The position numbers and the translations under genes are program-made. A stretch of DNA of 45,610 bases from Deltaproteobacteria bacterium (GTDB lineage: Bacteria; Myxococcota; UBA727; JABDBI01), in contig JAESQZ010000056.1 of NCBI GenBank assembly GCA_016764955.1, positions 1 to 45,610 on the forward strand, read 5' to 3'. This document shows, piece by piece, positions 3,324-20,361 of this stretch. Position 1 is the stretch's first letter; each line of letters opens with the position of its first letter. Under the pieces are notes generated by a model that saw nothing but the letters and a program-made list of their open reading frames with translations, ran no database searches and was not told the origin of the DNA.

Positions 3324-3325
3324 GA

Positions 3326-4420: not shown

Positions 4421-4424
4421 TATT

Positions 4425-5415: not shown

Positions 5416-5449
5416 GATTGTAATTTTTTTAATCCATTGAAAAGAAGTT

Positions 5450-5460
5450 GCCTAGATATG
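5450..5460 (+). promoter_or_regulatory. GCCTAGATATG motif, copy in inverted orientation
   Basis: Plus strand reads ttGCCTAGATATG, sharing a 13-mer with the copy at 8640-8652 read on the minus strand. A hairpin follows directly: cccttg(5461-5466) / caaggg(5477-5482). Confidence 0.5.
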
Positions 5461-5530
5461 CCCTTGCCATTACTGACAAGGGAATACCTGAGTTTGTAAG
5501 AAACTGTAATTTCATTAATCATCACTAGTT

Positions 5531-7036
5531 TTAGTGAATTACCTTGAAAAGATATTTTTTTGAGAAAACTACAGGAGTTTCACATCTTGGACATTTACAG
5601 GGAATAGCTCCTGCATCAAATATTTCTTTCATGTCTGTGTAACGATTGTAATCATCAAGGAATTGTTGTTTTTCTTTTTCAGTTTGTGATTCATTAGACT
5701 CAGCTTGCTTTGATGTAATCTTTTCAAGTTTCTTGAATTCTTTTTCAAATGTAGAAATCATTACTTTAACTACATCATCGTAAAATGGAAATGCACAAGC
5801 TGGACTGATGCATTTACTTGCAAACTTTGATTCAGAGGTATAATCACATTGCATACAAAATGTTATCAAAACTCCATGTCTTACATCTCGATAAGTTCTA
5901 AATGAACCGCATCCCTCACATCTCAATCCATAATATCCAATTGAGATAGCATCATCTCTGTTTGGAGGTTCAAGAATTGGTAAGAGATTTTTCATTTTTC
6001 TCTCCATTACTTTCATGGTTTGTTTTGATGTCATTGTGTCAAGATCCTTTTGAGCCTTGATTGTAAGATTTGCTTGTTTAACTTTGAACTCTTCAGGTTT
6101 GAGTTTGGCTTTGATTTCCTTGTATGCTTTTGATTTAGGATCAAGCTTGTTTAGGGTTCTCATTAATTTTTTTATTTCAGGTTGAACAGCTTCAATTATT
6201 TTGTATTGTTTTTCAAATAATTTTTTTGCTTCCTGCCATCTGTTAGCTCCAAAGTCTTTGATTCTATTAACGTAAATTCCTGCAGCGAAATTATCAGTTC
6301 CTTCAATGTGTGCAGCTAGTAGTAAATGCTGAAGCATTTTAGGACATGAAACTCTATCATCAAAGAGGTCCCCTGTAATGTCAATAATGGCATTAGCTTT
6401 GAGATAAGTTTCCTTTACTATCTTTTGATCATCTTCAGAAAGTAATGCAAGAAAATGTGATGTTCTTAACTTATTTTTTATTGATTGTTTAATCTTGATT
6501 TCTTTATCAATTAGATCAATGAGAATTTTATTTTCTTCTTCAGGTTTTGTATTTAAAGAACTATCTTCACGACGGTAAACGTCGTCTAGTTTATTGTCTT
6601 CCTTGTTAGAATAATGATGACCAATCTTGTATTTATGTGGTAGTGTTTCATGCACCCATGTCATTTGTGTTACAACTCCAATTGATTTCATTTCATTTTT
6701 GATGTGAGATGAGATTAATCCAATTTCTTTAATGGTTGGTTGTAGTTTGTTTTCAAGTTCTAGCTCGTGTTGTGATTCTAGTAATTCAGCCCACGTAAGA
6801 AAGATATTTCTTTTTGGGGATTTTGATAATAATACTGCAGCAGTTGTAGGAGATAGTAGTTCCTTTTTGAGTAAGATGATTCTGAGTTGTAGTAAGTTCA
6901 TTTGTTGTTTTACATTTTTTTCCTCTACAGATTCTAGTTGAATAATAAATTTCTCTAGTGTTTCTTTAGTTAGTTCTTCAATCTCTTCACTTGATAAAGT
7001 ATCAAGATCAGAGAGCTTTATTGGCTCTTGTGACAT
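5531..7036 (-). CDS. large coiled-coil protein with C-terminal zinc ribbons
   Basis: 501 aa and K/E-rich. C-terminal CEGCG...CMQC and CKCPRC pairs. First gene after a 72-nt intergenic region. I recognise no enzymatic motif. Confidence 0.7.
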   Translation of the reverse strand: MSQEPIKLSDLDTLSSEEIEELTKETLEKFIIQLESVEEKNVKQQMNLLQLRIILLKKELLSPTTAAVLLSKSPKRNIFLTWAELLESQHELELENKLQPTIKEIGLISSHIKNEMKSIGVVTQMTWVHETLPHKYKIGHHYSNKEDNKLDDVYRREDSSLNTKPEEENKILIDLIDKEIKIKQSIKNKLRTSHFLALLSEDDQKIVKETYLKANAIIDITGDLFDDRVSCPKMLQHLLLAAHIEGTDNFAAGIYVNRIKDFGANRWQEAKKLFEKQYKIIEAVQPEIKKLMRTLNKLDPKSKAYKEIKAKLKPEEFKVKQANLTIKAQKDLDTMTSKQTMKVMERKMKNLLPILEPPNRDDAISIGYYGLRCEGCGSFRTYRDVRHGVLITFCMQCDYTSESKFASKCISPACAFPFYDDVVKVMISTFEKEFKKLEKITSKQAESNESQTEKEKQQFLDDYNRYTDMKEIFDAGAIPCKCPRCETPVVFSKKYLFKVIH

Positions 7037-7044
7037 ATCTAGGC
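7034..7044 (-). promoter_or_regulatory. GCCTAGATATG motif containing the start codon of 5531..7036
   Basis: Minus strand reads atGCCTAGATATGtca. The ATG is the ORF start. Confidence 0.55.
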
Positions 7045-7108
7045 ATTGATACTATGAATGTCATTTAGAAAACACATACAAAAACAATAAAGTTGACTAA
7101 AGCAGTAG

Positions 7109-7297
7109 CTACTTTTTGAGCTGTTTCATCATTTTTGAAACTGCTTTTCTTTCCACAGGTTTTCTCCAATATTTTGAATTACAGTGAGAGCATGTGCTTT
7201 GTTCTACAGTCTTTCCAGTCTTTGAGTCAAGTGAAGGATAGAAATCCTTCTTGCATCTAAAACAATGAAGAGGAGAAATTTTTAATTCCTTTTTCAT
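7109..7297 (-). CDS. zinc-ribbon protein
   Basis: The track start at 7369 lies inside the upstream gene. An in-frame ATG at 7297 forms a TGATG overlap with the upstream stop. 62 aa: MKKELKISPLHCFRCKK...CSHCNSKYW. Confidence 0.6.
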   Translation of the reverse strand: MKKELKISPLHCFRCKKDFYPSLDSKTGKTVEQSTCSHCNSKYWRKPVERKAVSKMMKQLKK

Positions 7298-7857
7298 CAC
7301 GATAGGTTTTTGCCTCCGCAAGTTATACATTTCTTCCCCTTGAAAGTTGCTCCAGGACCACACTTGCAAGCTCCAATTAGAACTCCTGCAGTTCCTTTTA
7401 GATCTTTGACTTCTTCTTTATTCAAGGATTCCATGAAGGTTAGCAGTTCTAATTCTGGAATTTGTTTTCTCCAGGCGTTTCTCTCTGCTTTTGAGTGAGC
7501 TTTGCGTTGTCCAAATGGATCATAGATTCCTTTCTCATCAAAGTAGGGACATTCAGATAATCCTTCAGTCTCTAGGCCTGTTTTTTGGTTTCTTACTTTG
7601 ATGTGAGCTCTCCAGAACCACATTGTAGTATCTTTTGGATCATCTTTTTCTAAATTTACTTCTGAATGGATTGTTTCTAATGGCTGCTCTTTTTGTGACA
7701 TCTTCAAAGTAATAGCTTTGAGGCCAATGAAAGTTAATTCCATTTTTCCTTGAGATGTTTTGTATGCCATTTTCTTTTTGAGTTCTTCAGATAGTCCAGC
7801 TATTTGTTGCTCATCCATTGAATCCATGATAGAGAATTCAGATTTTTCAATAGACAT
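7297..7857 (-). CDS. hypothetical protein with C-terminal zinc ribbon; weak resemblance to Rad52-type annealases
   Basis: 186 aa. A beta-rich core (TMWFWRAHIKVRNQKTGLETEG) is followed by the helix RKAHSKAERNAWRKQIP and by CKCG...CITCGG. The annealase idea rests on pattern only. Confidence 0.6.
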   Translation of the reverse strand: MSIEKSEFSIMDSMDEQQIAGLSEELKKKMAYKTSQGKMELTFIGLKAITLKMSQKEQPLETIHSEVNLEKDDPKDTTMWFWRAHIKVRNQKTGLETEGLSECPYFDEKGIYDPFGQRKAHSKAERNAWRKQIPELELLTFMESLNKEEVKDLKGTAGVLIGACKCGPGATFKGKKCITCGGKNLS

Positions 7858-7973
7858 TAGGATTTATCCTCGTCAGTGTTCAGGAGTAAATCTTTGTTTA
7901 CATAGTCCTGGGTGTGTTCAATTGCTATCTCATCAAAAATCATTGAGAGAATTTTGTTTTCTTTGAAAGACAT
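7857..7973 (-). CDS. micro-ORF, 38 aa
   Basis: MSFKENKILSMIFDEIAIEHTQDYVNKDLLLNTDEDKS, with TAATG overlaps at both ends (7857 and 7973). Confidence 0.45.
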   Translation of the reverse strand: MSFKENKILSMIFDEIAIEHTQDYVNKDLLLNTDEDKS

Positions 7974-8116
7974 TATTTCAATACCTTCCTTAGAGTTTCA
8001 TTCACCACTTTGGAATAGCTGTATGATGTTTGATATTGTGTGATTTGTTTTGCTTGTTGCAGTCTAAGCATCTTGTCCAAATCATCATCTATCATGATTG
8101 TTATTCTTTTGGACAT
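7973..8116 (-). CDS. ribbon-helix-helix (CopG/Arc-like) DNA-binding protein, 47 aa
   Basis: MSKRITIMIDDDLDKMLRLQQAKQITQYQTSYSYSKVVNETLRKVLK. The pattern is N-terminal strand KRITIMIDDDL followed by two helices. TAATG overlaps at both ends. Confidence 0.55.
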   Translation of the reverse strand: MSKRITIMIDDDLDKMLRLQQAKQITQYQTSYSYSKVVNETLRKVLK

Positions 8117-8214
8117 TATTGATTTATCTCCGCAAAATGCACTACACAAAATATCTTACCATCAAAATCAGCAAGGTCTTTTGTGCTTCCACATCTATAA
8201 CATTCATAGGACAT
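8116..8214 (-). CDS. micro zinc-ribbon ORF, 32 aa
   Basis: MSYECYRCGSTKDLADFDGKIFCVVHFAEINQ, with TAATG overlaps at both ends. Confidence 0.45.
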   Translation of the reverse strand: MSYECYRCGSTKDLADFDGKIFCVVHFAEINQ

Positions 8215-8321
8215 TAAATTTTTCTCCCCTCATAGTATGTGAAAACATGTGCATCTTGACTCTCAAAATTGAGTTGTTGATGTAAGTTTTGGAGAATTCC
8301 AAAGAAAGATTTCTTTGTCAT
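8214..8321 (-). CDS. micro-ORF, 35 aa
   Basis: MTKKSFFGILQNLHQQLNFESQDAHVFTYYEGRKI. TGATG overlap with 8321..8644 and TAATG overlap downstream. Confidence 0.4.
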   Translation of the reverse strand: MTKKSFFGILQNLHQQLNFESQDAHVFTYYEGRKI

Positions 8322-8644
8322 CAGTTAATCCCCATCTCTCTAACAATTAGTTCTACTAATTGTTCAGCGTAGATGTCTGTGTGTCTGTCTTCTGCTTTTA
8401 ATGGATCATCATCTGTGTAAAAGTTCACGTTGTATGTGTCCATTTCTGTTACTGTTACCAAAATGCCTTTGAATTTGCTTGGGTTTTTTGGTAGTTTCAA
8501 GTATAATGCAGTTGTTGAAAATATACTTGGTTTGATTCCACTGTATGCAAAGAAAGGGAATCCGTTGACTTTACTTGCTTGGAGTTGTGAAAAAATCTCT
8601 TCAGCTTTGTAATTGTCTTTTGTTTGTATGCTTTGTGTTTTCAT
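8321..8644 (-). CDS. hypothetical protein, first gene of an operon
   Basis: 107-aa ORF whose ATG sits inside the GCCTAGATATG motif. Confidence 0.65.
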   Translation of the reverse strand: MKTQSIQTKDNYKAEEIFSQLQASKVNGFPFFAYSGIKPSIFSTTALYLKLPKNPSKFKGILVTVTEMDTYNVNFYTDDDPLKAEDRHTDIYAEQLVELIVREMGIN

Positions 8645-8652
8645 ATCTAGGC
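8642..8652 (-). promoter_or_regulatory. GCCTAGATATG motif containing the start codon of 8321..8644
   Basis: Minus strand reads ttGCCTAGATATGaaa. A TATA-like ggattataagc lies about 30 nt upstream. Confidence 0.55.
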
Positions 8653-8747
8653 AACATTACTAAAACATACTTGCTTATAATCCTTTAGTTTAAACTAACG
8701 TTAGTTATAGGTAATGCTTAATAATCATTCAATACCACACTAATCAT

Positions 8748-8818
8748 GGGACTCAGGTGTACGGAGCATAATCAGACTGAAAACTTGAGAGGTTCGGGTT
8801 CAACTCCCGAGAGTTCCA
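8748..8818 (+). tRNA. tRNA-Phe(GAA)-like gene with an atypical D arm
   Basis: - Acceptor stem GGGACTC / GAGTTCC, 7 bp with one G-T pair.
- T arm TCGGG-TTCAACT-CCCGA.
- Anticodon loop CTGAAAA; its stem is TCAGA/CTTGA, 4 pairs plus an A-C mismatch.
- Short D arm: GTGT/GCAT with wobble pairs and loop ACGGA.
- No encoded CCA.
- TATA-like ttaataat about 22 nt upstream and a T5 run at 8826-8830.
- This is the only plus-strand gene in the window. Confidence 0.55.
8766..8785 (+). repeat. 20-bp direct repeat, copy 1 (inside the tRNA: D-stem 3' side to anticodon loop)
   Basis: gcaTaatcagactgaaaact. It matches 8860-8879 at 19 of 20 positions. Confidence 0.8.
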
Positions 8819-8859
8819 ACCGATAATTTTTATAAAAAATAGAAAAAAATTGTGCAAAA

Positions 8860-8879
8860 GCACAATCAGACTGAAAACT
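8860..8879 (+). repeat. 20-bp direct repeat, copy 2
   Basis: gcaCaatcagactgaaaact, 94 bp downstream of copy 1. It overlaps the 3' arm of the hairpin attgtgc-aaaa-gcacaat (8849-8866). Confidence 0.8.
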
Positions 8880-8917
8880 ATAATTTCTATGAGGTACAAA
8901 GTTAAAAAGATTCATGC

Positions 8918-9031
8918 CTAAGAATCCCTCAAATATTTTTCATAATCTCTTTTTACTGCTTTTTCATCTGTTTGATTAACAAATCTTTGAATAAAATTTC
9001 TTTTGATTTTTTTATGAGACATTCGTTTCAT
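8918..9031 (-). CDS. basic micro-ORF, 37 aa
   Basis: MKRMSHKKIKRNFIQRFVNQTDEKAVKRDYEKYLRDS. ATGA overlap with the stop of 9028..9222. Confidence 0.3.
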   Translation of the reverse strand: MKRMSHKKIKRNFIQRFVNQTDEKAVKRDYEKYLRDS

Positions 9032-9222
9032 TTTGAATAATTCCTGATAATTTCTTGAACATATTCCTCAGCAGTGTCTTTAGCTGCCATCTCATAAGCT
9101 CTTTTTCTAACTTTAGCTATAATTATTTGAGGATCAGTAATGTTTTGAGCAATACATGAGCTAACTATTCCTCTTAATTCTCGTAGTCTTCCCCCTCTGA
9201 TTTCATTTGGTCCTGCCATCAT
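9028..9222 (-). CDS. hypothetical protein
   Basis: The track start at 9240 lies inside the upstream gene. Tandem ATGs at 9222 and 9219 overlap the upstream TGA. About 64 aa: MMAGPNEIRGGRLRELRG... Confidence 0.55.
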   Translation of the reverse strand: MMAGPNEIRGGRLRELRGIVSSCIAQNITDPQIIIAKVRKRAYEMAAKDTAEEYVQEIIRNYSK

Positions 9223-9896
9223 GAAAAACCATTCCCACAAACATCATCAGTTCTTTTGTTTTGTTTGATTAGTCTCATGCCTTTAGCATAATGTTTAGAT
9301 TGTTTCTCTAGTTTTTTGCACATTCGGTATAATTTAGGATGCTTTTTCTTGATGTAATCCCATCTTAGAAGACTATTGAAAGGGCAAAAATAACAACCTG
9401 ATTTTATCACATAAGGGAATCCTTTCTCAAAGATGTATCTCTCACAATCTAATCTATCCATTTTCCAATCAACTAAAGGATAGTGTTTTGTAATGTAATC
9501 TTCTTTAGCTGTTCTGCATCTTCTTGTTTCTGCTACATCAATTCCAATGTACTCATTAATTTTGAATCCTTTGTAGATTGTTTTGTAAAATTTATGAATT
9601 GGTCCTACTTTAAAATCCCTAGTACACCAACGTTTGAACATGTCTGGAAAAACTTTTCTTGTAATGCATTTATTGAATAGAGTTACTAGTCCAAAGTTTC
9701 TTACAGTTTTGAAAGGAATATCTTTTTTCTCTAAGAATTTTTTCATATACTCTACTGTATTGTAAGTTTCAGGAAGTTCTCCTCCAGTATCAGCAAACAC
9801 TACTTGATCAATTGGAATTTTCTTTTCAATCATTTTTAGAATCATTGCAGTAGAATCTACTCCTGCTCCATAGGATGCTATGTTGAGTTGTTTCAT
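9219..9896 (-). CDS. PAPS reductase / PP-loop ATP pyrophosphatase family protein
   Basis: 225 aa. N-terminal PP-loop ASYGAGVDSTAM (SGGxDS-type) and a C-terminal CYFCP cysteine pair. This matches the phage and archaeal-virus PAPS-reductase-like family. Confidence 0.75.
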   Translation of the reverse strand: MKQLNIASYGAGVDSTAMILKMIEKKIPIDQVVFADTGGELPETYNTVEYMKKFLEKKDIPFKTVRNFGLVTLFNKCITRKVFPDMFKRWCTRDFKVGPIHKFYKTIYKGFKINEYIGIDVAETRRCRTAKEDYITKHYPLVDWKMDRLDCERYIFEKGFPYVIKSGCYFCPFNSLLRWDYIKKKHPKLYRMCKKLEKQSKHYAKGMRLIKQNKRTDDVCGNGFS

Positions 9897-10051
9897 TTGT
9901 AAGTCACCATAATAGAAATATAATATCCTCGAATAGCTGGTTTGAAATTGAAAACTCCGTTTCGATTAAACCATGTGATTGATGTTCTCTTTTTTTGATA
10001 GAGTTTTCCAATAGATAAATAAAATCCAAATATTCTAATCCAAAAATTCAT
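9893..10051 (-). CDS. micro-ORF, 52 aa, hydrophobic N-terminus
   Basis: MNFWIRIFGFYLSIGKLYQKKRTSITWFNRNGVFNFKPAIRGYYISIMVTYK. TAATG overlap upstream and ATGA overlap downstream. Confidence 0.4.
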   Translation of the reverse strand: MNFWIRIFGFYLSIGKLYQKKRTSITWFNRNGVFNFKPAIRGYYISIMVTYK

Positions 10052-11808
10052 TATGGAAACATCTCCTCAGAAGCTTTGACTTGACCTTTAGATTCTGTAG
10101 CTAGACTCAAATCAATTAACATCTTTACACTTGAACTAAATCCTCCACTAGTAGGAGAATATCCTGTAGCCTCTGCAAGTTCAGGTCTAGTCAGAGAGTT
10201 TATCGGATCATAATAGATGTTACACAAAAAATCTAATACCTTAGATGAACATGCTCCAAGTTTATTCTTCCAATGATTTAGTAAATCTTCATGGTTTGTA
10301 GGAACAGGATCTAATCCTCCAGCTCTTTGAATTCCTGCAGGAGTAGGAGTAATTGTTCCATTTTCTTCTATGTATCCTGCATCTCTAAGATTTTTGATTG
10401 ATGTGCTGTAACCGCCTGAAGTTGGCCTATATCTTGAATAAACTGCAAGATGTTTTCTAGTCATGGGTTTGTTAAACTCTACTAATTTTTTCAAACAAGT
10501 TTCAGCACATTTGTTTAAAATAATTTCATCATCATTTAGAGATTCAACAGATACAGAATGTGATTGAAAATTATTCACAGTCCTTGGAATTATTCCCTCT
10601 TCTTGAATTTGGTTTGGTATAGTTGGTTTTTCTATCTTTGTTTCAATTGAAAGAGCTTTGTTAATTTCATTTACTGCATGATCACAAGTATCAAAGATTT
10701 CATTTTTGGATTTATTGATTTTAACAAAACCCATTTTTAGAATTTTAAGTAATGATCTCTTATCATGTAATTCTTGAACAGTTGAAATGAATTTTACTGT
10801 AGCCTCATCAAATCCTTTTTTGTATGCTCTGTTTAATTCTCCTGTATCTTGTTTAATTATGGGTTGATTCTTTTCAGATTGTCTAAGTTTTGTTTGTAGT
10901 TCTTGTATTTTTAATTGAAGCCCTTCCTTTGTTTTTAGATCCTGTTCTACTTCTAAATCCAATTCAGAGAAATTTGTTAATAATCCTGTGATTTTCTTTT
11001 TGTTTGCTGGAATGTATTCTTTAATATTTCCAAGCTCCTCATGAGATGTTTTAGTTTCATAAGCTTTGACTAGAACATTATCATCAGCAATTGCAGGACC
11101 AAAGGCATAGAATTCATGCTTTAGTTTTCTCAATATTTTAGTATCTTTAATTCCAAGTTCTTCTCCTGCTCTTTTTCTATCAATATCTAAGGCACATCTA
11201 CCAATGAATTTTGTGTTGAGTTCAGCAGCTACATCTTTGTTTAATTTTGAAATTCTCTGAGTGGCTCCAATTAATCCATAACCTCTTTTTCTTCCTCTGC
11301 TAGCCAAAGCTGCAACTGCAGCAAGTGATTCTGAACGTCCAGACTTTGATTCAGGAGCAAATATATGAATTTCATCAAGCCAAATGAGACATTGATGCCA
11401 TAGAGTTTTTGGAAGGTTAATCAGTGCCTCACAAAATAGTTTTACAAATCTAATCCTTTCAAATGGATTTAGTTCATACAAATCAATTATAACATCTGCA
11501 CCTGTCTCCATGATTCTTTTTGCCAATAATGCAGCATGTTTAGAATCAATTTGGATATCAGCTTGTGGTCCTTTACCAACAAGTAAGAAAGAATAGTGTT
11601 CTCGTAAAGTTGGAAATTCTCCTTCAGGATCAATAATTATTTGTTGAACTTTTCCATGAGCTTCTTCAATTCCTTTTCTCATGGCATGACTCTTTCCTCC
11701 TCCAGAATTTGCTTGGAGTAATGCTCTTGATTTTATTAGTTCTTGAAGATTTACAAGAATTGGTTTTTTCTTTTCTACATCTAAGAAAATTCGTAGCCAA
11801 TCAGTCAT
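10051..11808 (-). CDS. HerA/FtsK-superfamily P-loop ATPase with C-terminal tandem winged-helix repeats
   Basis: 585 aa. Walker A ANSGGGKSHA, Walker B LIWLDEIHIFAP, and RGRKRGYGLIGATQR typical of HerA/DUF87-like ATPases. Two C-terminal repeats: RPTSGGYSTSIKNLRDAGYI and SPTSGGFSSSVKMLIDLSL. Confidence 0.75.
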   Translation of the reverse strand: MTDWLRIFLDVEKKKPILVNLQELIKSRALLQANSGGGKSHAMRKGIEEAHGKVQQIIIDPEGEFPTLREHYSFLLVGKGPQADIQIDSKHAALLAKRIMETGADVIIDLYELNPFERIRFVKLFCEALINLPKTLWHQCLIWLDEIHIFAPESKSGRSESLAAVAALASRGRKRGYGLIGATQRISKLNKDVAAELNTKFIGRCALDIDRKRAGEELGIKDTKILRKLKHEFYAFGPAIADDNVLVKAYETKTSHEELGNIKEYIPANKKKITGLLTNFSELDLEVEQDLKTKEGLQLKIQELQTKLRQSEKNQPIIKQDTGELNRAYKKGFDEATVKFISTVQELHDKRSLLKILKMGFVKINKSKNEIFDTCDHAVNEINKALSIETKIEKPTIPNQIQEEGIIPRTVNNFQSHSVSVESLNDDEIILNKCAETCLKKLVEFNKPMTRKHLAVYSRYRPTSGGYSTSIKNLRDAGYIEENGTITPTPAGIQRAGGLDPVPTNHEDLLNHWKNKLGACSSKVLDFLCNIYYDPINSLTRPELAEATGYSPTSGGFSSSVKMLIDLSLATESKGQVKASEEMFP

Positions 11809-12597: not shown

Positions 12598-12799
12598 TCT
12601 TATCAGCCTCCATGTGAATAATTTCAGTTAATTTTTTGCCATCTTGTTTAGAAACACAGTCAAGAATTAGTGAGATTAGTCCTGAGAGTGAGCCAATGCC
12701 CATAACGGAGAAATTCCTTTTTCTAGCTTGATGAAAGTCATGCCATTTGTCATATACAATATCTCCAATAGTTAGAGTAGTGAATCCAGGCTTAGGCAT
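12590..12799 (-). CDS. hypothetical protein
   Basis: 69-aa ORF on the coding strand. Confidence 0.55.
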   Translation of the reverse strand: MPKPGFTTLTIGDIVYDKWHDFHQARKRNFSVMGIGSLSGLISLILDCVSKQDGKKLTEIIHMEADKIE

Positions 12800-12882
12800 T
12801 ATTTTTCCTCCTCAAAATCGTCAAGAGTAGTTCCATCATGATCAGCATTATTGGTTTTTTTTCTCTTATCTAGAAAGCTCAT
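12799..12882 (-). CDS. micro-ORF, 27 aa
   Basis: MSFLDKRKKTNNADHDGTTLDDFEEEK. It exactly bridges two genes, with an ATGA overlap upstream and a TAATG overlap downstream. Confidence 0.3.
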   Translation of the reverse strand: MSFLDKRKKTNNADHDGTTLDDFEEEK

Positions 12883-14051
12883 TGTCCTTTCCTCACAATT
12901 TGATTGCCATGACAAAGAACTCCAGGAGTTTTTACTCTAGCGTATAGTTCAGCATAATTTCTTTTAGGATACATTTTCTTGATCATATGCCAAAGATCAG
13001 GTTTCTTGGAATGTTCAGATCTTAACTCTTCAATTATGCTAGAAAATAATTTTGCAGGAACAGGCATTTCTCCCTTGATAGCCATTAGGAGATTTTCATG
13101 TTGATTTCTATTCCAAGAACCTACTCCAATCTTTTTCTTATTCCAAACAAATTCCTGTTTTACTTTGAACCCTGCAGCATCTAAAACAGCTTTGTAGAAT
13201 GGAATTGGATATTTTACATCAATGGATTTATCTCCAACTAGTAAATTATCAATTTTAATTTCAACTTCTGAATATTGTATTGATGGACTCATCCAGAAAA
13301 ACATTATGGCATTATCAGCAGCAGCTAATTTGCTAAAGTCCTGAATGAGTTCATCAATTGTCATTGTAGGATAATGTGTTTCAGCAGCTCCTCTTCCTCC
13401 TTTGTCCTCATATCCATAAGGCACATCAGCTAGGAATACATCAGAAATTGTTTTTGGTAATGGAACCTTTGGAAGATTTCTATCTTTCCTGGTTAGTTGA
13501 GTGTGGAGAGTTGTGATTTTTGTTTCTCCAGTGTAGAGTTTTTTCTTTTGTTCAAGAGTAGCATTACTATGAATATGTAATGCTCTCTCAAAGGTTGTAG
13601 TAGACATGTCAGCTTCTTTAGCTGCTTTAGCTGTAGCTTTACCCTTAGCCTCTTTAGATGCTAAGGTTCCAGATTTTTGTCTGGATTCAGCTTGAACCAC
13701 TTCTTTTTCATAGGTAATTAGAGATGCTTCAAATTTTTGATATTTACTAAGATGTCTTCTCTTGAGATTCATTGAGTTGATGTAATCTATTTTTTCCACT
13801 TCAGAATCAAACTCCCATTGTTCGTATTTGATATCATCAATTCTTTGTTTACCTAGAATTTCATCTCTAGTGTATCCGTCAACTAGATTCCAATCCTCAT
13901 CAGCACAAACAGGTTTTAGTTGTCCTTTGGATTCCATGTCATCATACATTTTGTTAAAATCTTTTTGAGTAGGTCTAGGAGTTATTGATTTATACAAATC
14001 ATTATGAAGAATTTCAGAACGTGAGATAGTTCCTGATTTGATTAGTTTCAT
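12879..14051 (-). CDS. ParB-like nuclease domain fused to an MT-A70-family N6-adenine DNA methyltransferase
   Basis: 390 aa. The N-terminus has NLVDGYTRDEIL (ParB DGxxR-type). The C-terminus has ADVPYGY (a DPPW variant), HYPTMTIDEL, IMFFWMS, FVWNKKKIGVGSWNRNQHENLL. Confidence 0.8.
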   Translation of the reverse strand: MKLIKSGTISRSEILHNDLYKSITPRPTQKDFNKMYDDMESKGQLKPVCADEDWNLVDGYTRDEILGKQRIDDIKYEQWEFDSEVEKIDYINSMNLKRRHLSKYQKFEASLITYEKEVVQAESRQKSGTLASKEAKGKATAKAAKEADMSTTTFERALHIHSNATLEQKKKLYTGETKITTLHTQLTRKDRNLPKVPLPKTISDVFLADVPYGYEDKGGRGAAETHYPTMTIDELIQDFSKLAAADNAIMFFWMSPSIQYSEVEIKIDNLLVGDKSIDVKYPIPFYKAVLDAAGFKVKQEFVWNKKKIGVGSWNRNQHENLLMAIKGEMPVPAKLFSSIIEELRSEHSKKPDLWHMIKKMYPKRNYAELYARVKTPGVLCHGNQIVRKGQ

Positions 14052-14139
14052 TTTGTAAACCTCTCAAATCCATTACATATTTTGTAAAACAAATAACAAA
14101 TCAAAATTGTCCAAGTAGTTGCAGTTACAAATTCTTCAA

Positions 14140-14823
14140 TCAATTGTAATCCTCCTTTGAAACATTAGTAGTGATTAGGACATGTGGATATTTTCCCATT
14201 ACAACATATTCAGATTGAATGAAAATGTTTTTGAAGCCTGATTTTTTCATTCGATTATTTTCTCGTCTTGTAGTGATGAAGAATTTACCCTTGATTGATT
14301 TACATAATTCTAGAATTTCTTCATCATAAGCTTTGACTGATTCTCTATCAAAATGAGAGAATCCTTGATCATAGAATGACTTGAACCAAGGCTGATCAAT
14401 TACAAATACTGTATTTTTAGAATCATATTTCTTGATGCAATACTTGAAATCAGTACAAGTAATTTTAACATCATTGTAATTGAATTCTTTTCTGAGCCAT
14501 TTTGCAACAAACTTTGATTTATCATTTAGAATGAATTGAATTGGATATCCTGAAATTTTCTTAGGTCCAAAGAGTTCTTGACAAACTTTAGCTGTTCCAG
14601 CTAGAGGCTCACAATATACATCACAATCAGGGATTAGTCGTGCTAGTCGTCTTGATATTCCAGTGATTCCAGCATATCCAGCTAGTCTTTTTCCATCATC
14701 AATTCTAGGAAGAGATATTGATTTTTGTCCAAATCTGTTAATTATGGTTTTAGCTACATCTTCATTTCTTGGATTAGGATTAGTCTTGATGCCTCTATGA
14801 GATTCAAGTTTTAGGCCTTCCAT
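14140..14823 (-). CDS. Dam-like (D12 class) N6-adenine DNA methyltransferase
   Basis: 227 aa. SRRLARLIP...YCEPLAGTAKV is the AdoMet motif I and VFVIDQPWF is motif IV (DPPY-like), in the alpha-class order. Confidence 0.75.
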   Translation of the reverse strand: MEGLKLESHRGIKTNPNPRNEDVAKTIINRFGQKSISLPRIDDGKRLAGYAGITGISRRLARLIPDCDVYCEPLAGTAKVCQELFGPKKISGYPIQFILNDKSKFVAKWLRKEFNYNDVKITCTDFKYCIKKYDSKNTVFVIDQPWFKSFYDQGFSHFDRESVKAYDEEILELCKSIKGKFFITTRRENNRMKKSGFKNIFIQSEYVVMGKYPHVLITTNVSKEDYN

Positions 14824-14990
14824 TATGGCTCAACCTCACATTCGTTTGAATGACCGTCTGGACAATTGAGATTAATTTTAGAGATTGAAAATTTGGTTCC
14901 TGATTTTGTTTCCTGGAACATCAAGAGATCGATATCAATTGGAATTACTACTGAACCACAAGTAACACAAGTTCGAATAATTGATTTCAA
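14823..14990 (-). CDS. micro zinc-ribbon ORF, 55 aa, TTG start
   Basis: (M)KSIIRTCVTCGSVVIPIDIDLLMFQETKSGTKFSISKINLNCPDGHSNECEVEP. TAATG overlap with the methyltransferase start. Confidence 0.4.
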   Translation of the reverse strand: MKSIIRTCVTCGSVVIPIDIDLLMFQETKSGTKFSISKINLNCPDGHSNECEVEP

Positions 14991-15160
14991 ATTTCGTTCT
15001 CCTCAATATCTTCTTGTTTACCAACTGTCACTTTGACAAAGCACCTACATTCTCTGCACCACCAATGATCAATTTTTTCAGCAGTTAGAATTCCTTTTCT
15101 TCTAAATGTAATTTTTGGAGTGTAGAGAATTTCTCCACATTTATTGTGTGAAGGATTCAT
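14987..15160 (-). CDS. micro zinc-ribbon ORF, 57 aa
   Basis: MNPSHNKCGEILYTPKITFRRKGILTAEKIDHWWCRECRCFVKVTVGKQEDIEENEI. ATGA overlap with the upstream stop. Confidence 0.45.
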   Translation of the reverse strand: MNPSHNKCGEILYTPKITFRRKGILTAEKIDHWWCRECRCFVKVTVGKQEDIEENEI

Positions 15161-15432
15161 TTTAGATTTCTCCTCTCTGTTTCTCTAGTTACAATTCTAA
15201 CAGCTATCTCATGAGCTTGCTCTTTGGTGTATTTTTTCTCGTCAATGTAGAAATGAACTACTTTGGAATAAGTTGCATCTCTATCAAATTCTTTGAGAGT
15301 GGTTTGAGGATTTTCTTTTCCTCTAGTTGGAGCTTCTGTATATTTTTGAAATACTCTTTCTAGTGCTAGCTTGATTCCAGGATTAGGTTCTGTTTCAATT
15401 TCCTCTAAAAGCCATTTTTTAGTTAGAGTCAA
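15157..15432 (-). CDS. hypothetical protein
   Basis: 91-aa ORF with 4-nt overlaps at both ends. Confidence 0.6.
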   Translation of the reverse strand: MTLTKKWLLEEIETEPNPGIKLALERVFQKYTEAPTRGKENPQTTLKEFDRDATYSKVVHFYIDEKKYTKEQAHEIAVRIVTRETERRNLK

Positions 15433-15611
15433 AATTGATTCTCCTTGTGCCGATTAGCTACGAATCTATCTTTGAAACCATAGGGATTTTCATCATCAGG
15501 TCTATTGTCATTTACGAATTTATGTGGAGGAGTTGTTTTGTTAGAAATTCCAGTCTTCCAATCATGACCTCCTGCAGTTTCACCTTCTCCACAAACTAAG
15601 CATCGAGTCAA
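15429..15611 (-). CDS. hypothetical protein with N-terminal CxxC
   Basis: 60-aa ORF with overlap coupling. Confidence 0.5.
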   Translation of the reverse strand: MTRCLVCGEGETAGGHDWKTGISNKTTPPHKFVNDNRPDDENPYGFKDRFVANRHKENQF

Positions 15612-15790
15612 TCGAAAATACTCCCATGTGATTTGTGTCCTGGACCTTTGCTGTCTAGAAATGGCATTTCTATGAATGGTGAAAGTATTACTGGAATCAT
15701 ACAGCTAGGCATACATGATGTGTGTTTGATTAGAGGCCAATTCGTGCATTTATCAAATGGATTTACTACTTCGTATCTCATACTAGACAT
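15608..15790 (-). CDS. hypothetical Cys-rich protein
   Basis: 60-aa ORF with overlap coupling. Confidence 0.45.
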   Translation of the reverse strand: MSSMRYEVVNPFDKCTNWPLIKHTSCMPSCMIPVILSPFIEMPFLDSKGPGHKSHGSIFD

Positions 15791-16197
15791 TATTTTTTCC
15801 TCTCCAATGCTTCGCTCAAACTGTGAATTTTCTGAATTAATCGAAATGTTGAATGGTCCTGTAATGCTCCCATTGCTTCAAATTCATCAACTACAAATTC
15901 TGCAGTTTGTTTTATTTTCGTGAGTTTTTCTAATTTTTTTAATACTTTAGGAAATGTTGTATTTAATTCTGCAAGTTTTGTAACTATTTTATCACGTTGT
16001 TCTGCTTTTTCTAACTGTGATTCTAGTTTGGATTGTAGAGATATTTCTTCATCTTCTAATTTTTTGATTTGTGTTGTACATTCTAAAAATTTTAGATTTT
16101 TTAAATCTCTCCCATAATCACAAAGTGGTCCTAACTTATTTCTAAGAAGTGAAAGATGATAAGGTATTTTCAATAATCGTTCTAGTTCTGAATTCAT
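15790..16197 (-). CDS. coiled-coil protein
   Basis: 135 aa, with heptad-like K/E/L-rich sequence. Confidence 0.6.
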   Translation of the reverse strand: MNSELERLLKIPYHLSLLRNKLGPLCDYGRDLKNLKFLECTTQIKKLEDEEISLQSKLESQLEKAEQRDKIVTKLAELNTTFPKVLKKLEKLTKIKQTAEFVVDEFEAMGALQDHSTFRLIQKIHSLSEALERKK

Positions 16198-16799
16198 TTT
16201 TTTGTCCTCTCAAAAATGTAATTTTTTCCTTCTATCTTGTCAATTTCATATTTGCCTTCAGTACAGCTTAGTACATTCAAATAATTTCTGACAGACTGTG
16301 TTGAACCACTTCCAGTTTTCTTTTTACATCGTAGTACGATGCAGCTAACTCCATCAGATAAGAGATATCTTGGCTTCTTTTCAGTGATTTTTTCAGTTAA
16401 GAAATTTTCAGTAATTTCATAATGAGCTCGGTTTAGGTCAATCTCTTTGTGTTCTTGTGTGTCGTTTGTTCTCTCTCTCGCTCTCAGAGACTCAAAATCA
16501 AAAGTTTCTTCCCATGCTTGATTTTTCTTAATTAGTTCTCTTGCTAGTATTTGTAAATCAAAATCTTTATTCTTGTCCTCATTGCATTTCCAATGAACTT
16601 TTGCTAGATTCCATAATGCGTGATTTTTTCCATCATTGTCTAGATGCTCCCATGTTTCTTTCCATAGAGTGTGTCCAGGAAGGAATCTTTGTTCACAAAA
16701 GCAACAAACACGTTCTGCTCCATGAGGATAATCTCTTTCATTCATCAAAGGAGTTCTTTTCACTTGAACGTTTACTGTGAGACTCACTGCAGGAGGCAT
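16194..16799 (-). CDS. HNH endonuclease domain protein
   Basis: 201 aa with CCFCEQRF...WEHLDNDGKNHALWNLAKVHWKCNEDK, which fits CxxC, H, N, N, HxxC of the HNH motif. GGGGGAG lies upstream of the ATG. Confidence 0.7.
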   Translation of the reverse strand: MPPAVSLTVNVQVKRTPLMNERDYPHGAERVCCFCEQRFLPGHTLWKETWEHLDNDGKNHALWNLAKVHWKCNEDKNKDFDLQILARELIKKNQAWEETFDFESLRARERTNDTQEHKEIDLNRAHYEITENFLTEKITEKKPRYLLSDGVSCIVLRCKKKTGSGSTQSVRNYLNVLSCTEGKYEIDKIEGKNYIFERTKK

Positions 16800-16834
16800 C
16801 TATACGCTCCCCCCTTTTTGATTGTAGAGAGAAA

Positions 16835-16853
16835 CACAACGTTTACCGTTGTG
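16835..16853 (-). other. intergenic hairpin
   Basis: cacaacg-tttac-cgttgtg: 7-bp stem and 5-nt loop, flanked by GA-rich runs, in the 65-nt gap before the HNH gene. Confidence 0.5.
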
Positions 16854-16864
16854 GAGAGAGAGAA

Positions 16865-17083
16865 TCATCTTTTGATCATCCCCAAAGAGTCAACCTTGTC
16901 AGCACCATAATATTCCCTAAGAGCTGCTAGTTTTCGTTTAGATGGAACAGAATAATTTATGCGTTTTTTTACTAGTTTGATTCCTTTATTTTTCTCAGAT
17001 GTAATGAATTTGTCAATTTTAAATTCAAAGGCATGAGCAAAAACTAGTCTTCCAGTTGCAGGAATAATAGCAGCCCAACCCAT
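16865..17083 (-). CDS. hypothetical protein
   Basis: 72-aa ORF on the coding strand. Confidence 0.55.
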   Translation of the reverse strand: MGWAAIIPATGRLVFAHAFEFKIDKFITSEKNKGIKLVKKRINYSVPSKRKLAALREYYGADKVDSLGMIKR

Positions 17084-17520
17084 CAGGCCACAATCTCCCT
17101 TCCAAGTTCAACTAGTTTATCGCATACAGTACAAAGATGTTCACGCTGTTTTTTCTCATTCCAAAAAATTACATCTGCCTGACATTCAGGGCATTTAGTT
17201 TGTGTAAATACTCCTCCAGATTCGAAGAGAGGTTTTGATTTTTGTTTTGTTTTTAATTTTCTTGTTCCTAATCTTGCAGATTGATATTCAAGAGCTTTGG
17301 TTAATCCAGTAGTTTTGAAAAATTGAATTTTAGCTTGACATGTGAGACATTCTACATGAAAATCTTTTCTATCATCTATTTTAATTTCAAATAGATTTGA
17401 ATTCATATTAATTCCACACATGGTTCTTTCAATGTTATTTCTCAAAACAAAATGCAGATACAACACTCCTTGTCTTTGTCTTCTATGGTGGGTTCTAGTC
17501 CAGAATCCATCAGGAATCAT
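17083..17520 (-). CDS. double zinc-ribbon protein
   Basis: 145 aa with CLTCQ and CPECQ...CTVC. Confidence 0.6.
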   Translation of the reverse strand: MIPDGFWTRTHHRRQRQGVLYLHFVLRNNIERTMCGINMNSNLFEIKIDDRKDFHVECLTCQAKIQFFKTTGLTKALEYQSARLGTRKLKTKQKSKPLFESGGVFTQTKCPECQADVIFWNEKKQREHLCTVCDKLVELGREIVA

Positions 17521-17906
17521 TAGAGATTTACCTCCAGTGTAGGTTTTGATGTGAAAATTTTCATTGGAAGAACTATGATTTCATTTCCACTTACATTGTA
17601 GAGACTAGGATTAAATTTTCTGAAGAGTTTGATTTTATTGCAACTAATCCAATGTGGCTCATTTAGTTTACTTGAAATTAAAATTAATAATTTTGATTCT
17701 ATTCCATGATTATTTCTTTCATAAAGGTATGACATGATGGATTTGTTGATTCCAAATCCAGCCCAACCAAATTCTCTCCTCCAACCAAGCTCTCTTCCTG
17801 CAACTTTGAAAGGATCAGTGATTTCTAGGATGATTGAGTTATTGTTTGGATTTACTGTAATTTCTTGATGACCTAATATTTTGGTGAAATTTTGCTGAAG
17901 GCTCAA
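17520..17906 (-). CDS. hypothetical protein
   Basis: 128-aa ORF with overlap coupling. Confidence 0.6.
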   Translation of the reverse strand: MSLQQNFTKILGHQEITVNPNNNSIILEITDPFKVAGRELGWRREFGWAGFGINKSIMSYLYERNNHGIESKLLILISSKLNEPHWISCNKIKLFRKFNPSLYNVSGNEIIVLPMKIFTSKPTLEVNL

Positions 17907-18100
17907 ATTAAAATATCCTCCTTTTTCTGAAATGGTATTTTCCGCCTGATTTTCTCCTTTCTGTAGTGATAAACGCTATCTAGGCATCGATTACAACAAT
18001 CCATCGTGTCATCAGGATTTGGATTTCCCTTGAAAGTGACTATCCAATCAGGAGTATTATCACAGCAATTGTGAATTAGGAGAGAATCTAGAAGGACCAT
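17903..18100 (-). CDS. hypothetical Cys-rich protein, first gene after the large non-coding region
   Basis: The track start is GTG at 18121. An ATG at 18100 is preceded by GGAGG (plus-strand cctcc at 18110-18114) with a 9-nt spacer. Confidence 0.55.
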   Translation of the reverse strand: MVLLDSLLIHNCCDNTPDWIVTFKGNPNPDDTMDCCNRCLDSVYHYRKEKIRRKIPFQKKEDILI

Positions 18101-18279
18101 ACTGCTAATCCTCCTAGACACTTTTCCATTTCTGGAAGGCCTAGAAGGAAAACAGTTTCTACATGTATTCCAAGTGACGATGTAAGAGATGATTTGACAT
18201 AAGAATTCAAAATGAATTCTACAGTATGACTATAGTTTTCCTTCAGTTTCTTTTTCTCCCTTTTGATTTTTTATACATA

Positions 18280-18396
18280 CTAGGCTAACGAGAGATAATA
18301 CTGAATGATAATTAAAGTTACTACTGTTATAACTTTTATACAATGGTTAGCTAATAATTGACAAGGAGTGACAGGCAATGTTCCTTTTGAATACAT
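18280..18396 (-). CDS. possible hydrophobic micro-ORF, 38 aa, headed by the GCCTAGATATG motif
   Basis: MYSKGTLPVTPCQLLANHCIKVITVVTLIIIQYYLSLA. Supported only by its shared start context with two bona fide genes. Confidence 0.25.
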   Translation of the reverse strand: MYSKGTLPVTPCQLLANHCIKVITVVTLIIIQYYLSLA

Positions 18397-18433
18397 ATCT
18401 AGGCGGATTGTTTTGAATTGTAGCCTGTCACTC
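18366..18433. repeat. 11-bp inverted repeat bracketing the motif at 18394-18404
   Basis: gagtgacaggc (18366-18376) and gcctgtcactc (18423-18433), separated by 46 nt. Confidence 0.8.
18394..18404 (-). promoter_or_regulatory. GCCTAGATATG motif copy in the integrase-proximal non-coding region
   Basis: Minus strand reads ccGCCTAGATATGtat. Confidence 0.5.
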
Positions 18434-20247: not shown

Positions 20248-20361
20248 GATAACACAAATACGCAACAAGTGGTTAAAATATTTGGCTAATAATGGTGAGT
20301 AAATGAAAGTTTACAACCCATTTTGGGTGAGATATTTTATTGACTTGTCGTGTTTTCGTTC

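What the first reader, a model, noticed from the sequence alone, without database searches (positions are those of the whole stretch)
5450..18404. The 11-mer GCCTAGATATG recurs four times, and three copies carry a start codon
**Seen in the sequence**
- Exact minus-strand copies lie at 7034-7044, 8642-8652 and 18394-18404. One plus-strand copy lies at 5450-5460.
- The copies at 8640-8652 and 5448-5460 share a 13-mer, TTGCCTAGATATG.
- In two cases the ATG is the start of a bona fide operon-leading gene (5531..7036 and 8321..8644).
- The third copy heads a 38-aa hydrophobic ORF in the integrase-proximal non-coding region and is bracketed by an 11-bp inverted repeat.
- The fourth copy is inverted, sits upstream of 5209..5415 and is followed by a 6-bp hairpin.
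- An exact G+C-containing 11-mer is not expected to recur four times in 45 kb of AT-rich DNA.

**Inference**
- It may be an initiator or short-leader element of an early promoter class.
- It may instead be an operator for a regulator. The operon headed by the 8642 copy encodes a ribbon-helix-helix protein (7973..8116), so autoregulation is an obvious hypothesis.
Basis: partly seen in the sequence, partly recalled or inferred. Interest (0 to 1): 0.6.

Follow-up and report, generated by a model that had tools for sequence, protein, structure and literature searches.

The report
Leader and anti-leader pair, archaeal virus
The repeated 11-base word is most likely the very short leader plus start codon of three early gene blocks in a virus of ammonia-oxidising archaea. 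Its single inverted copy, always fused to a hairpin behind one gene, looks like a matching "anti-leader" that lets the two ends of the message pair, a control device not yet described in archaea or their viruses.

Summary
In detail: there are four exact copies (0.57 expected even allowing one mismatch), and three end in the ATG of genes that lack a Shine-Dalgarno site.

The window is a whole 45.6-kb contig of a temperate tailed virus of Nitrosopumilaceae. Its integrase homologues lie in Nitrosopumilus genomes next to host SRP19 and TFB genes.

- **Conserved motif.** In relatives, the motif sits at the start codon of the 501-aa gene's homologue, with lineage-specific variants (GCCTAGAT, GCCTAGAC, GCCTAGAA, GTCTAGA, GTCGAGAC).
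- **Conserved partner.** In all ten lineages examined, the reverse complement of that 5' region lies behind the gene or operon. It is fused to a hairpin whose stem covaries.
- **Compensated changes.** Every substitution in the leader is matched in the partner.
- **RNA-level signs.** The hairpin is more stable on the mRNA strand, through G·U pairs and GNRA loops. Modelled full-length mRNAs fold end to end.
- **TATA spacing.** TATA-like boxes lie about 25 nt upstream of the motif's first G, which predicts an 8-nt leader, GCCUAGAU.

Best reading: mRNA 5'-3' end-pairing (leader with anti-leader) that masks the start codon or stabilises the message. Copies at 8644 and 18396 share the same leader.

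An operator for a repressor is not excluded for those copies.

The parts
7034..7046 (-). Copy B: TGCCTAGATATG, the predicted 8-nt leader GCCUAGAU plus the start codon of the 501-aa gene. It forms the 5' strand of helix P1.
   Evidence: Conserved at the homologue's start codon in L006, L009, L012, L010, L014, L007/L015/L016 and L017.
5531..7036 (-). 501-aa helical protein with Zn ribbons and unknown function. This is the gene enclosed by the leader/anti-leader pair.
   Evidence: no family hit; 11 homologues; conserved Cys pairs; pLDDT 63, no fold match.
5448..5460 (-). It forms the 3' strand of helix P1. It is complementary to copy C over 14 nt, copy B over 12 nt and copy D over 11 nt.
   Evidence: Such a partner is present in all ten lineages.
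5461..5482 (-). Hairpin P2: CCCUUGUCA-GUAA-UGGCAAGGG on the mRNA strand, directly abutting the anti-leader.
   Evidence: -13.4 kcal/mol on the sense strand against -8.0 on the antisense strand. Stems covary among lineages.
5440..5451 (-). Late-type promoter box variant GCAACTTCTTTT for the next gene (5209..5415). It overlaps the 3' end of the anti-leader and so marks the end of the upstream unit.
   Evidence: same spacing to the ATG as the boxes before the genes starting at 5176 and 4796.
8642..8655 (-). Copy C: GTTGCCTAGATATG, leader plus start codon of the 107-aa gene. It heads the overlapping-gene operon 8644..7109, which contains the RHH-like 47-aa gene (7973..8116).
8674..8684 (-). Predicted BRE/TATA of the copy C promoter, GGATTATAAGC. 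The TATA part ends 21 nt before the motif's G.
   Evidence: the same box at the same spacing in L006 (GGATTATAAAGC, then 19 nt, then GCCTAGATATG).
7063..7071 (-). TATA-like TTTCTAAAT upstream of copy B, preceded by a T-rich tract (TTTATTGTTTTTG) that could end the upstream operon.
   Evidence: Geometry only; no TSS data.
18394..18404 (-). Copy D: GCCTAGATATG in the 536-nt non-coding region downstream of the integrase gene. Its ATG opens a 38-codon ORF that is not conserved.
   Evidence: There is no TATA-like box at the distance seen for copies B and C (read).
18366..18433 (-). An 11-bp inverted repeat, GAGTGACAGGC / GCCTGTCACTC, that brackets copy D with 18 nt and 17 nt on either side.
   Evidence: Analogous arrangement in provirus L020: GGGGTGGA ... 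TTGCGTAAACATG ... TCCACCCC.
18658..20268 (-). Tyrosine integrase.
   Evidence: homologues carry PF00589 and are named from Nitrosopumilus, Nitrosarchaeum and Thaumarchaeota; the gene is integrated next to host SRP19, Gar1 and TFB genes.

Best explanation
**What the motif is.** GCCTAGAT-ATG is the short 5' leader plus start codon of a class of non-structural (early/middle) transcripts of a temperate tailed virus of Nitrosopumilaceae. An archaeal TATA-type promoter about 25 nt upstream is predicted to start transcription at the motif's first G. The mRNAs would then begin 5'-GCCUAGAUAUG and be translated like leaderless messages (inferred).

**What the inverted copy is.** It is not a promoter part. 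On the mRNA strand it reads CAUAUCUAGGCAA and sits directly 3' of a stable GNRA-capped hairpin. It lies at the end of the 501-aa gene's transcription unit, just before the next promoter.

**How the ends pair.** Leader and anti-leader pair (helix P1) and stack on the hairpin (P2). In other lineages the first codons also pair with the segment 5' of the hairpin (P3). The two ends of the message are thereby closed into a two- or three-way junction that buries the 5' end and the AUG. The complementarity, its conservation and its covariation are shown here.

**What it does (inferred).** While the transcript is still being made, the start codon is free. Once the 3' element is transcribed, the start codon is masked or the ends are protected from exonucleases. 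This limits or times expression.

**Other copies (inferred).** The copies at 8644 and 18396 carry the same leader, and the anti-leader matches the 8644 copy best (14 nt). The same 3' element could therefore act on them too, either in read-through transcripts or in trans.
For: **Conservation**
- The motif ends in (or, in L012/L015/L016, abuts) the start codon of the 501-aa homologue in 9 further lineages, with variants.

**Partner**
- In all 10 lineages, a reverse complement of the 5' region lies behind the gene. It lies behind an inserted extra gene in L015 and behind five more genes in L017. It lies 0-2 nt from the hairpin in the eight lineages with a clear P1; L016 keeps only P3 and L015's spacing was not tabulated.

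**Compensation in P1**
- Motif position 2: C-G or U-A.
- Position 4: U-A or G-C.
- Position 8: U-A, C-G or A-U.
- In the five lineages with a P1 of 8 bp or more (W, L006, L009, L012, L017) every substitution is matched.

**Trade-off between P1 and P3**
- Lineages with a strong P1 have a weak P3, and the reverse. My sum of the two cognate values is about -22 to -29 kcal/mol in every lineage.
- The cognate 3' partner gives L009's best P3 energy against all other lineages' partners; L006's cognate is best for its 5' end only.

**Hairpin P2**
- At least six unrelated stem sequences occur.
- On the sense strand the hairpin gains 4-8 kcal/mol in W, L006 and L009 (6 G·U pairs against 0 on the antisense strand), with GUAA and GAAA loops.
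- The whole complex is more stable on the sense strand in 7 of 9 lineages.

**Whole-transcript folds**
- MFE folds of full 1.44-1.6-kb model transcripts pair 13-27 of the first 30 nt with the 3' element, in 8 of 8 lineages.

**Specificity of the site**
- The true 3' site ranks 1st to 7th of 394-4540 windows in all 10 lineages.

**Complete relative**
- In a complete 50-kb relative, GCCTAGAW occurs only twice: the pair flanking this gene.

**Position of the element**
- A late-type promoter box directly follows the anti-leader, so the element sits at a unit's 3' end.

**Archaeal host**
-.

**TATA geometry**
- Read.
Against:
- If transcription starts on the A of ATG (strictly leaderless), P1 would be absent from the mRNA in the GCCTAGA lineages, where P3 is weak (W: -3.8 kcal/mol).
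- In Haloferax, leaders of 6 nt or more are rare (PMC4983044), so an 8-nt leader without a Shine-Dalgarno site is unusual.
- Covariation of all copies within a genome is also what a co-evolving DNA-binding protein would give.
- Copy D lacks a TATA-like box at the right distance. It sits inside its own inverted repeat, which this model does not explain.
- For L017's 2.9-kb unit, the MFE pairs only 6 of the 11 complementary nt.
- The sense-over-antisense advantage is modest in the MSKLV lineages (those whose protein begins MSKLV: L010, L014, L007, L015, L016).
Confidence: 0.55

Rival explanations
1. Operator sites. The 11-13-mer is the DNA binding site of a virus-encoded repressor (the RHH-like 47-aa protein, or another). 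It covers the start sites of three early promoters. A fourth site in inverted orientation lies at the end of the early region, for example for looping or as a boundary.
For: - Three copies overlap predicted start sites of consecutive non-structural units.
- All copies in one genome share that lineage's variant, including copies with no nearby partner (L006 at 3983, L009 at 7244).
- The virus is temperate.
- An RHH-like gene lies in the operon headed by copy C and is syntenic upstream of the 501-aa gene in L012, L014 and L016.
- An earlier AI note on another thaumarchaeal virus read a motif abutting start codons this way. That note is a lead only.
Against: - The motif has no dyad or tandem symmetry.
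- In the MSKLV lineages (protein begins MSKLV) the conserved complementarity moves into the coding region (14 nt, TGTCTAAATTGGTA), and only a palindromic CTAGA remains upstream.
- A hairpin is fused to the inverted copy wherever P1 is clear and splits it from the P3 segment. That would break a protein site.
- The sense strand has G·U pairs and GNRA loops.
- The complete relative has only the flanking pair.
- RHH homologues occur with different leaders and were not found in L006 or L009.
Confidence: 0.2
2. Convergent antisense promoter. The inverted copy is a fourth promoter of the same class, firing on the + strand. It makes an antisense RNA that starts with the motif and a 5' hairpin and covers the 3' end of the 501-aa gene.
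For: - A T/A-rich tract (TTTTTTTAAT, 5424-5433) lies about 22 nt upstream of the + strand motif (about 30 nt before its ATG). A TTTTAAAA box lies at a similar distance in L009 (read).
- The motif sequence is identical to that of the forward copies.
Against: - The hairpin is 4-8 kcal/mol weaker on that strand in W, L006 and L009, and loses its GNRA loops.
- The upstream T/A tract is not conserved in L006 or L012.
- In L006 the inverted copy has no ATG (GCCTAGATACC).
- This model does not explain why the segment beyond the hairpin copies the gene's first codons in six lineages.
Confidence: 0.08
3. DNA-level inverted repeats. They would be recombination sites of an invertible or mobile gene cassette carrying the 501-aa gene.
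For: - 11-14-bp inverted repeats flank one gene or small operon in every lineage.
- A tyrosine recombinase is encoded in the genome.
Against: - All ten lineages show the same orientation, with the start codon joined to the upstream promoter side.
- The repeat overlaps the coding start.
- The repeats covary freely instead of keeping a recombinase core.
- The hairpin interrupts one arm.
- The integrase is 11 kb away and has its own chromosomal target next to SRP19.
Confidence: 0.04

Closest known systems
icaR mRNA 5'-UTR/3'-UTR pairing in Staphylococcus aureus (PMC3868564)
   Same: A short motif in the 3' UTR pairs with the translation-initiation region of the same mRNA. This blocks initiation and creates a double-stranded RNase substrate.
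   Different: icaR is bacterial. Its 3' motif masks a Shine-Dalgarno site inside a long 5' UTR, and RNase III is the effector. Here the masked element is a predicted 8-nt leader plus the AUG at the extreme 5' end of an archaeal-virus mRNA without a Shine-Dalgarno site. The partner is fused to a hairpin, and nothing has been tested experimentally.
hok mRNA fold-back inhibition (fbi) element of plasmid R1 hok/sok, 'mRNA end-pairing' (PMC9841398; the original work by Franch and Gerdes is cited from my own knowledge)
   Same: The very 5' end of the full-length mRNA pairs with its 3' end. This keeps the message translationally inert until the 3' end is processed.
   Different: hok is a type I toxin message with an antisense partner, Sok. 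Here the gene encodes a 501-aa protein of unknown function, and no antisense RNA or processing is known.
B. subtilis hbs mRNA 5'/3'-UTR interaction (PMC5737220), and the functional 5'-3' UTR interplay in Haloferax volcanii translation control (PMC2636863)
   Same: Pairing or interplay of the two UTRs controls ribonuclease access (hbs) or translational efficiency (haloarchaea). This shows that such end-to-end control exists in prokaryotes, including archaea.
   Different: In Haloferax no base-pairing element has been defined. In hbs the effect is protection from RNase Y. The element here is sequence-defined, has a hairpin, and is conserved in a virus family.
Operators of small RHH repressors on archaeal virus promoters (SSV1 F55, SIRV1 SvtR). 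Cited from my own knowledge.
   Same: Short repeated sites cover the start sites of several early promoters of a temperate or carrier-state archaeal virus.
   Different: Those sites are tandem or dyad repeats bound as dimers of dimers. Here the motif is asymmetric, the inverted copy is coupled to an RNA-type hairpin, and no binding has been tested.

Membership tests
mRNA 5'-3' end-pairing elements (icaR / hok fbi type) | Sequence in the 3' region complementary to the translation-initiation region of the same gene or operon | tested here: met
   There are 11-14 nt of perfect or G·U-containing complementarity in W. Equivalent pairs occur in all 10 lineages. The true site ranks 1st to 7th of 394-4540 windows.
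mRNA 5'-3' end-pairing elements (icaR / hok fbi type) | Pairing maintained in evolution by compensatory changes | tested here: met
   Three P1 positions show double changes. P3 has different sequences in L006 and L009 than in the MSKLV group. P2 has at least six unrelated stems.
mRNA 5'-3' end-pairing elements (icaR / hok fbi type) | Both partners lie on one transcript (mapped 5' and 3' ends) | not testable with these tools
Only promoter geometry and the position just before the next promoter speak for it.
mRNA 5'-3' end-pairing elements (icaR / hok fbi type) | Pairing changes translation or mRNA stability | not testable with these tools
   Needs reporter or toeprint assays.
Archaeal BRE/TATA promoter with a defined initiator | TATA-like box centred about 24-27 nt upstream of the start site | tested here: inconclusive
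   A T/A-rich octamer is centred 22.5-27.5 nt upstream of the motif's G in 7 of 8 forward copies. GGATTATAAGC lies at identical spacing in W and L006. Copy D does not fit, and no TSS has been mapped.
Operator set of an RHH repressor (SSV1 F55 / SvtR type) | Site built from dyad or tandem sub-repeats | tested here: not met
   GCCTAGATATG has only the 4-bp palindromes CTAG and ATAT, and no repeat partner at copies B, C or D.
Operator set of an RHH repressor (SSV1 F55 / SvtR type) | A cognate RHH protein is encoded and co-varies with the site | tested here: inconclusive
   The 47-aa protein looks RHH-like but has no Pfam hit. Homologues occur in L012, L014 and L016, which have different leaders; none was found in L006 or L009.
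Invertible DNA segment (Hin/Gin, phiCh1 Int1 type) | Both orientations of the segment occur | tested here: not met
   The orientation is the same in all 10 lineages.
Intrinsic or oligo-T terminator | Hairpin directly followed by a T run (bacteria), or a run of at least 5 T (archaea) | tested here: not met
   The hairpin is followed by the anti-leader. Only T4 tracts occur, 10-35 nt later, and not in all lineages.
Archaeal bulge-helix-bulge processing or circularisation stem | Two 3-nt bulges on opposite strands separated by 4 bp | tested here: not met
   The predicted junctions are a nick-like two-way or a three-way junction, with the hairpin opposite the AUG. There are no offset 3-nt bulges.
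Known RNA families (Rfam 15) | Match to a curated covariance model | tested here: not met
   Only the tRNA at 8748-8818 is found.

The most novel reading that the evidence does not exclude
Tailed viruses of marine ammonia-oxidising archaea use a conserved hairpin-plus-anti-leader module at the 3' end of an early operon. The module closes the mRNA end to end and masks a cap-like 5' leader plus AUG. In the window's lineage, the same leader has spread to three operon heads, so that one 3' element times a small early regulon in cis and in trans. This would be the first sequence-defined mRNA end-pairing switch in Archaea or in any archaeal virus.
Probability: 0.3. Interest if true: 0.8.

Novelty: new variant of a known kind. 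Interest (0 to 1): 0.62.

Why it matters
- **Little-known control layer.** Post-transcriptional control in archaea, and especially in their viruses, is almost unmapped. For leaderless or near-leaderless mRNAs it is unclear how translation can be regulated at all, because there is no ribosome-binding site to mask.
- **A concrete answer.** A conserved, covarying element that pairs the extreme 5' end and start codon with the 3' end of the same message would be a directly testable answer.
- **Practical use.** It gives a handle on early-gene timing in an uncultivated but ecologically important group, the viruses of marine ammonia oxidisers. It also gives an annotation rule, leader motif plus hairpin/anti-leader, that delimits transcription units in these genomes.

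Tried and rejected
**Searches that found nothing useful**
- Near-identity search in the phage collection: no match.
- Single-protein locus search in viral contigs: no relatives.
- Profile search of species genomes: none.
- Extending provirus L020: record not held.
- Rfam: no family for any element.

**The 501-aa protein**
- No Pfam or PHROG hit.
- No PDB sequence hit.
- The AF2 model has low confidence, and Foldseek gives nothing below E = 0.6.
- Resemblances to serine recombinase or TnpB were considered and dropped. The motif spacing is wrong, and the N-terminal 360 residues are all helical.

**Readings rejected**
- Bacterial sigma-70 reading (TAGTAT as a -10 box). Rejected once the host proved archaeal.
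- attP core. Rejected because copy D lies downstream of int, while integration is on the other side of int, next to SRP19.
- Terminator, BHB stem and tRNA-like acceptor/T-arm minihelix. The geometry is not met (9-bp stem with a tetraloop, no T loop).

**No second case**
- A search for analogous 5'/3' complementarity at 35 other gene starts of the window found nothing comparable.

**Chance copy**
- The fifth genomic copy on C53 is what chance predicts.

Full report
**Observation**

The 11-mer GCCTAGATATG occurs exactly four times: 5450-5460 (+), 7034-7044 (-), 8642-8652 (-) and 18394-18404 (-). Even with one mismatch allowed, 0.57 matches are expected, and none of 100 shuffles reaches four.

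Recurrence of some 11-mer is not rare in this AT-rich window. 46 words occur at least four times, against about 12 in Markov-3 simulations. All the others are A/T-rich or belong to a 60-bp repeat gene.

The three minus-strand copies end in the ATG of ORFs 5531..7036, 8321..8644 and 18280..18396. All three lack the GAGG-type Shine-Dalgarno site that internal genes of the window carry.

Two small corrections apply. The 13-mer of the 8644 copy lies at 8642-8654. The neighbouring hairpin is 9 bp on the coding strand.

**What the window is**

The window is a whole contig, C1. It has 33.8% G+C in a 44% G+C bin of 253 contigs, and its tetranucleotide correlation with the rest of the bin is 0.69, so it is probably mis-binned. 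All genes are on the minus strand. Terminase, tail and fibre genes identify a tailed virus.

The 536-aa ORF is a tyrosine integrase. Its homologues carry PF00589 and are named from Nitrosopumilus, Nitrosarchaeum and Thaumarchaeota MAGs. In three contigs the gene abuts host SRP19, Gar1 and TFB genes. The host is therefore an ammonia-oxidising archaeon, and archaeal rules for promoters and translation apply.

Structural genes without a Shine-Dalgarno site carry a RAATAGTTCYCT box, followed by a T/A-rich stretch, about 24 nt before the ATG.

**Conservation of the motif**

The 501-aa protein has 11 homologues. I fetched their contigs.

The motif ends in (or, in L012 and L015/L016, abuts) the homologue's start codon in every lineage, with lineage-specific variants:

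| Lineage | Motif at the start codon |
|---|---|
| L006 (57% identity) | TGCCTAGATATG |
| L009 | GCCTAGACATG |
| L012 | TGCCTAGAATTG |
| L010 | GTCTAGAATG |
| L014 | GTCTAGATG |
| L007 / L015 / L016 | CTAGATTG |
| L017 | TGTCGAGACATG |

L006 and L009 each have one further forward copy, 1.6-2.8 kb upstream. It carries the same variant and again ends in an ATG.

The promoter region of copy C is orthologous in L006: GGATTATAA(A)GC, then 19-20 nt, then the motif.

**The inverted copy has a conserved partner role**

In every lineage, a reverse complement of the gene's 5' region lies behind the gene. In L015 it lies behind one inserted gene, and in L017 behind five further genes, 1.7 kb away.

Read on the mRNA strand, the order is: a segment complementary to the first codons (P3), a hairpin (P2), then 0-2 nt, and then the complement of the leader (P1).

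- **P1.** It is 14 bp in W, 11 in L006, 8 in L009, 12 in L012, 11 in L017 and 6-8 in the MSKLV lineages (those whose protein begins MSKLV: L010, L014, L007); L016 has no real P1. Motif positions 2, 4 and 8 change on both strands together: C-G/U-A, U-A/G-C, and U-A/C-G/A-U.
- **P3.** It is a perfect 14-mer (TGTCTAAATTGGTA, about -19 kcal/mol) where P1 is short. It is weak where P1 is long. My sum of the two cognate values stays at about -22 to -29 kcal/mol.
- **P2.** It has at least six unrelated stem sequences.
- **Specificity.** The true 3' site ranks 1st to 7th of 394-4540 sliding windows for duplex energy with the 5' segment, in all ten lineages.
- **Complete relative.** In the complete 50-kb relative behind L012, GCCTAGAW occurs only twice, as this flanking pair.

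**RNA or DNA, and which strand**

- The hairpin is much more stable on the mRNA strand in W (-13.4 against -8.0), L006 (-17.3 against -9.6) and L009 (-13.5 against -9.7). The reasons are six G·U pairs, against none on the other strand, and GUAA and GAAA loops.
- The whole two-strand complex favours the sense strand in 7 of 9 lineages.
- MFE folds of complete model transcripts (1.44-1.6 kb) pair 13-27 of the first 30 nt with the 3' element in 8 of 8 lineages. For L017's 2.9-kb unit only part of the helix appears.
- A late-type promoter box for the next gene directly follows, and in W overlaps, the anti-leader. The element therefore sits at the end of a unit.
- It is not a terminator, because no T run follows it. 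It is not a BHB stem, and it is not in Rfam.

**Where transcription probably starts**

This section is inferred. Relative to the motif's first G, a T/A-rich octamer is centred 22.5-27.5 nt upstream in 7 of 8 forward copies (read). That is the distance at which the late promoters of this same genome place their T/A stretch before a leaderless ATG.

This predicts starts at T|G and an 8-nt leader, GCCUAGAU.

Copy D does not fit. It has no box at that distance, and it lies in the loop of an 11-bp inverted repeat. A related provirus has the same layout with a variant motif, TTGCGTAAAMATGACCA, occurring twice.

No transcript data could be obtained.

**Mechanism proposed**

Leader and anti-leader pair and stack on the hairpin. 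This closes the message end to end and buries the 5' end and the AUG.

The nearest precedents are:
- icaR, where the 3' UTR masks the initiation region (PMC3868564);
- hok fold-back inhibition (PMC9841398);
- hbs 5'/3'-UTR protection (PMC5737220);
- the undefined UTR interplay in Haloferax (PMC2636863).

Whether the effect is masking or stabilisation is open. Copies C and D share the leader, and the anti-leader matches C over 14 nt, B over 12 and D over 11. Action on them in read-through transcripts or in trans is therefore possible but unshown.

**Rivals**

- **Operator for a repressor.** It remains possible for copies C and D, and both mechanisms could coexist. It does not explain the fused hairpin, the shift of complementarity into the coding region, or the sense-strand G·U pairs. 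The RHH-like protein has no Pfam support and does not track the motif.
- **Antisense promoter.** The hairpin's strand asymmetry argues against it.
- **Invertible cassette.** The constant orientation across lineages argues against it.

**Verdict**

Its reading of the fourth copy is replaced by a conserved leader/anti-leader end-pairing module. This is a new variant of a known kind of control, and it has not been described in archaea or their viruses.

Noticed in passing
L020:11817-11950 (provirus in a Nitrosopumilus-type contig): A variant motif, TTGCGTAAAMATGACCA, occurs twice, 117 nt apart, just downstream of a 76%-identical integrase. The first copy is bracketed by GGGGTGGA / TCCACCCC, the same layout as copy D of the window. 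The ORFs it opens are only 12 and 14 codons long.
   Followed up: partly
window 8747-8821 (+): The only + strand gene is a tRNA-Phe(GAA) (ARAGORN; Rfam 35.5 bits). It lies about 95 nt upstream of copy C, so the TATA-like GGATTATAAGC box lies between two divergent genes.
   Followed up: partly
window 5440-5451 (-): A late-type promoter box variant, GCAACTTCTTTT, overlaps the 3' end of the anti-leader. Its spacing to the ATG at 5415 is the same as for the boxes before the genes starting at 5176 and 4796.
   Followed up: partly
L012:4732-4866, L014:19-135, L016:2-133: Homologues (40-45% identity) of the 47-aa RHH-like protein lie 1-3 kb upstream of the 501-aa homologue in three lineages with different leader sequences. 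None was found in L006 or L009.
   Followed up: partly
L020, L021 and L022, around position 10000: In three independent contigs the integrase gene abuts the same host genes (SRP19, Gar1, TFB, ABC ATPase). This points to one conserved chromosomal integration site for this integrase family.
   Followed up: no
L012:7450-7480: A second perfect 13-nt reverse complement of the gene's start region (AGAATTGTCTGAA) lies immediately before the ATG of the next gene, 267 nt after the stop codon. It is additional to the hairpin/anti-leader element.
   Followed up: no
window 37249-37260 (-) and 8739-8750 (+): The 12-mer ACTAATCATGGG around the start codon at 37260 recurs at the 5' edge of the tRNA gene. This may be chance.
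   Followed up: no
window 1-45610 against the rest of G000: The viral contig has 33.8% G+C against 44% for the bin, and a tetranucleotide correlation of 0.69 (0.81-0.94 for six of the seven other contigs tested; 0.71 for C3). The bin is probably not the host.
   Followed up: partly
window 8672-8727: A 31-nt imperfect palindrome (71%) lies between the tRNA gene and the copy C promoter.
   Followed up: no
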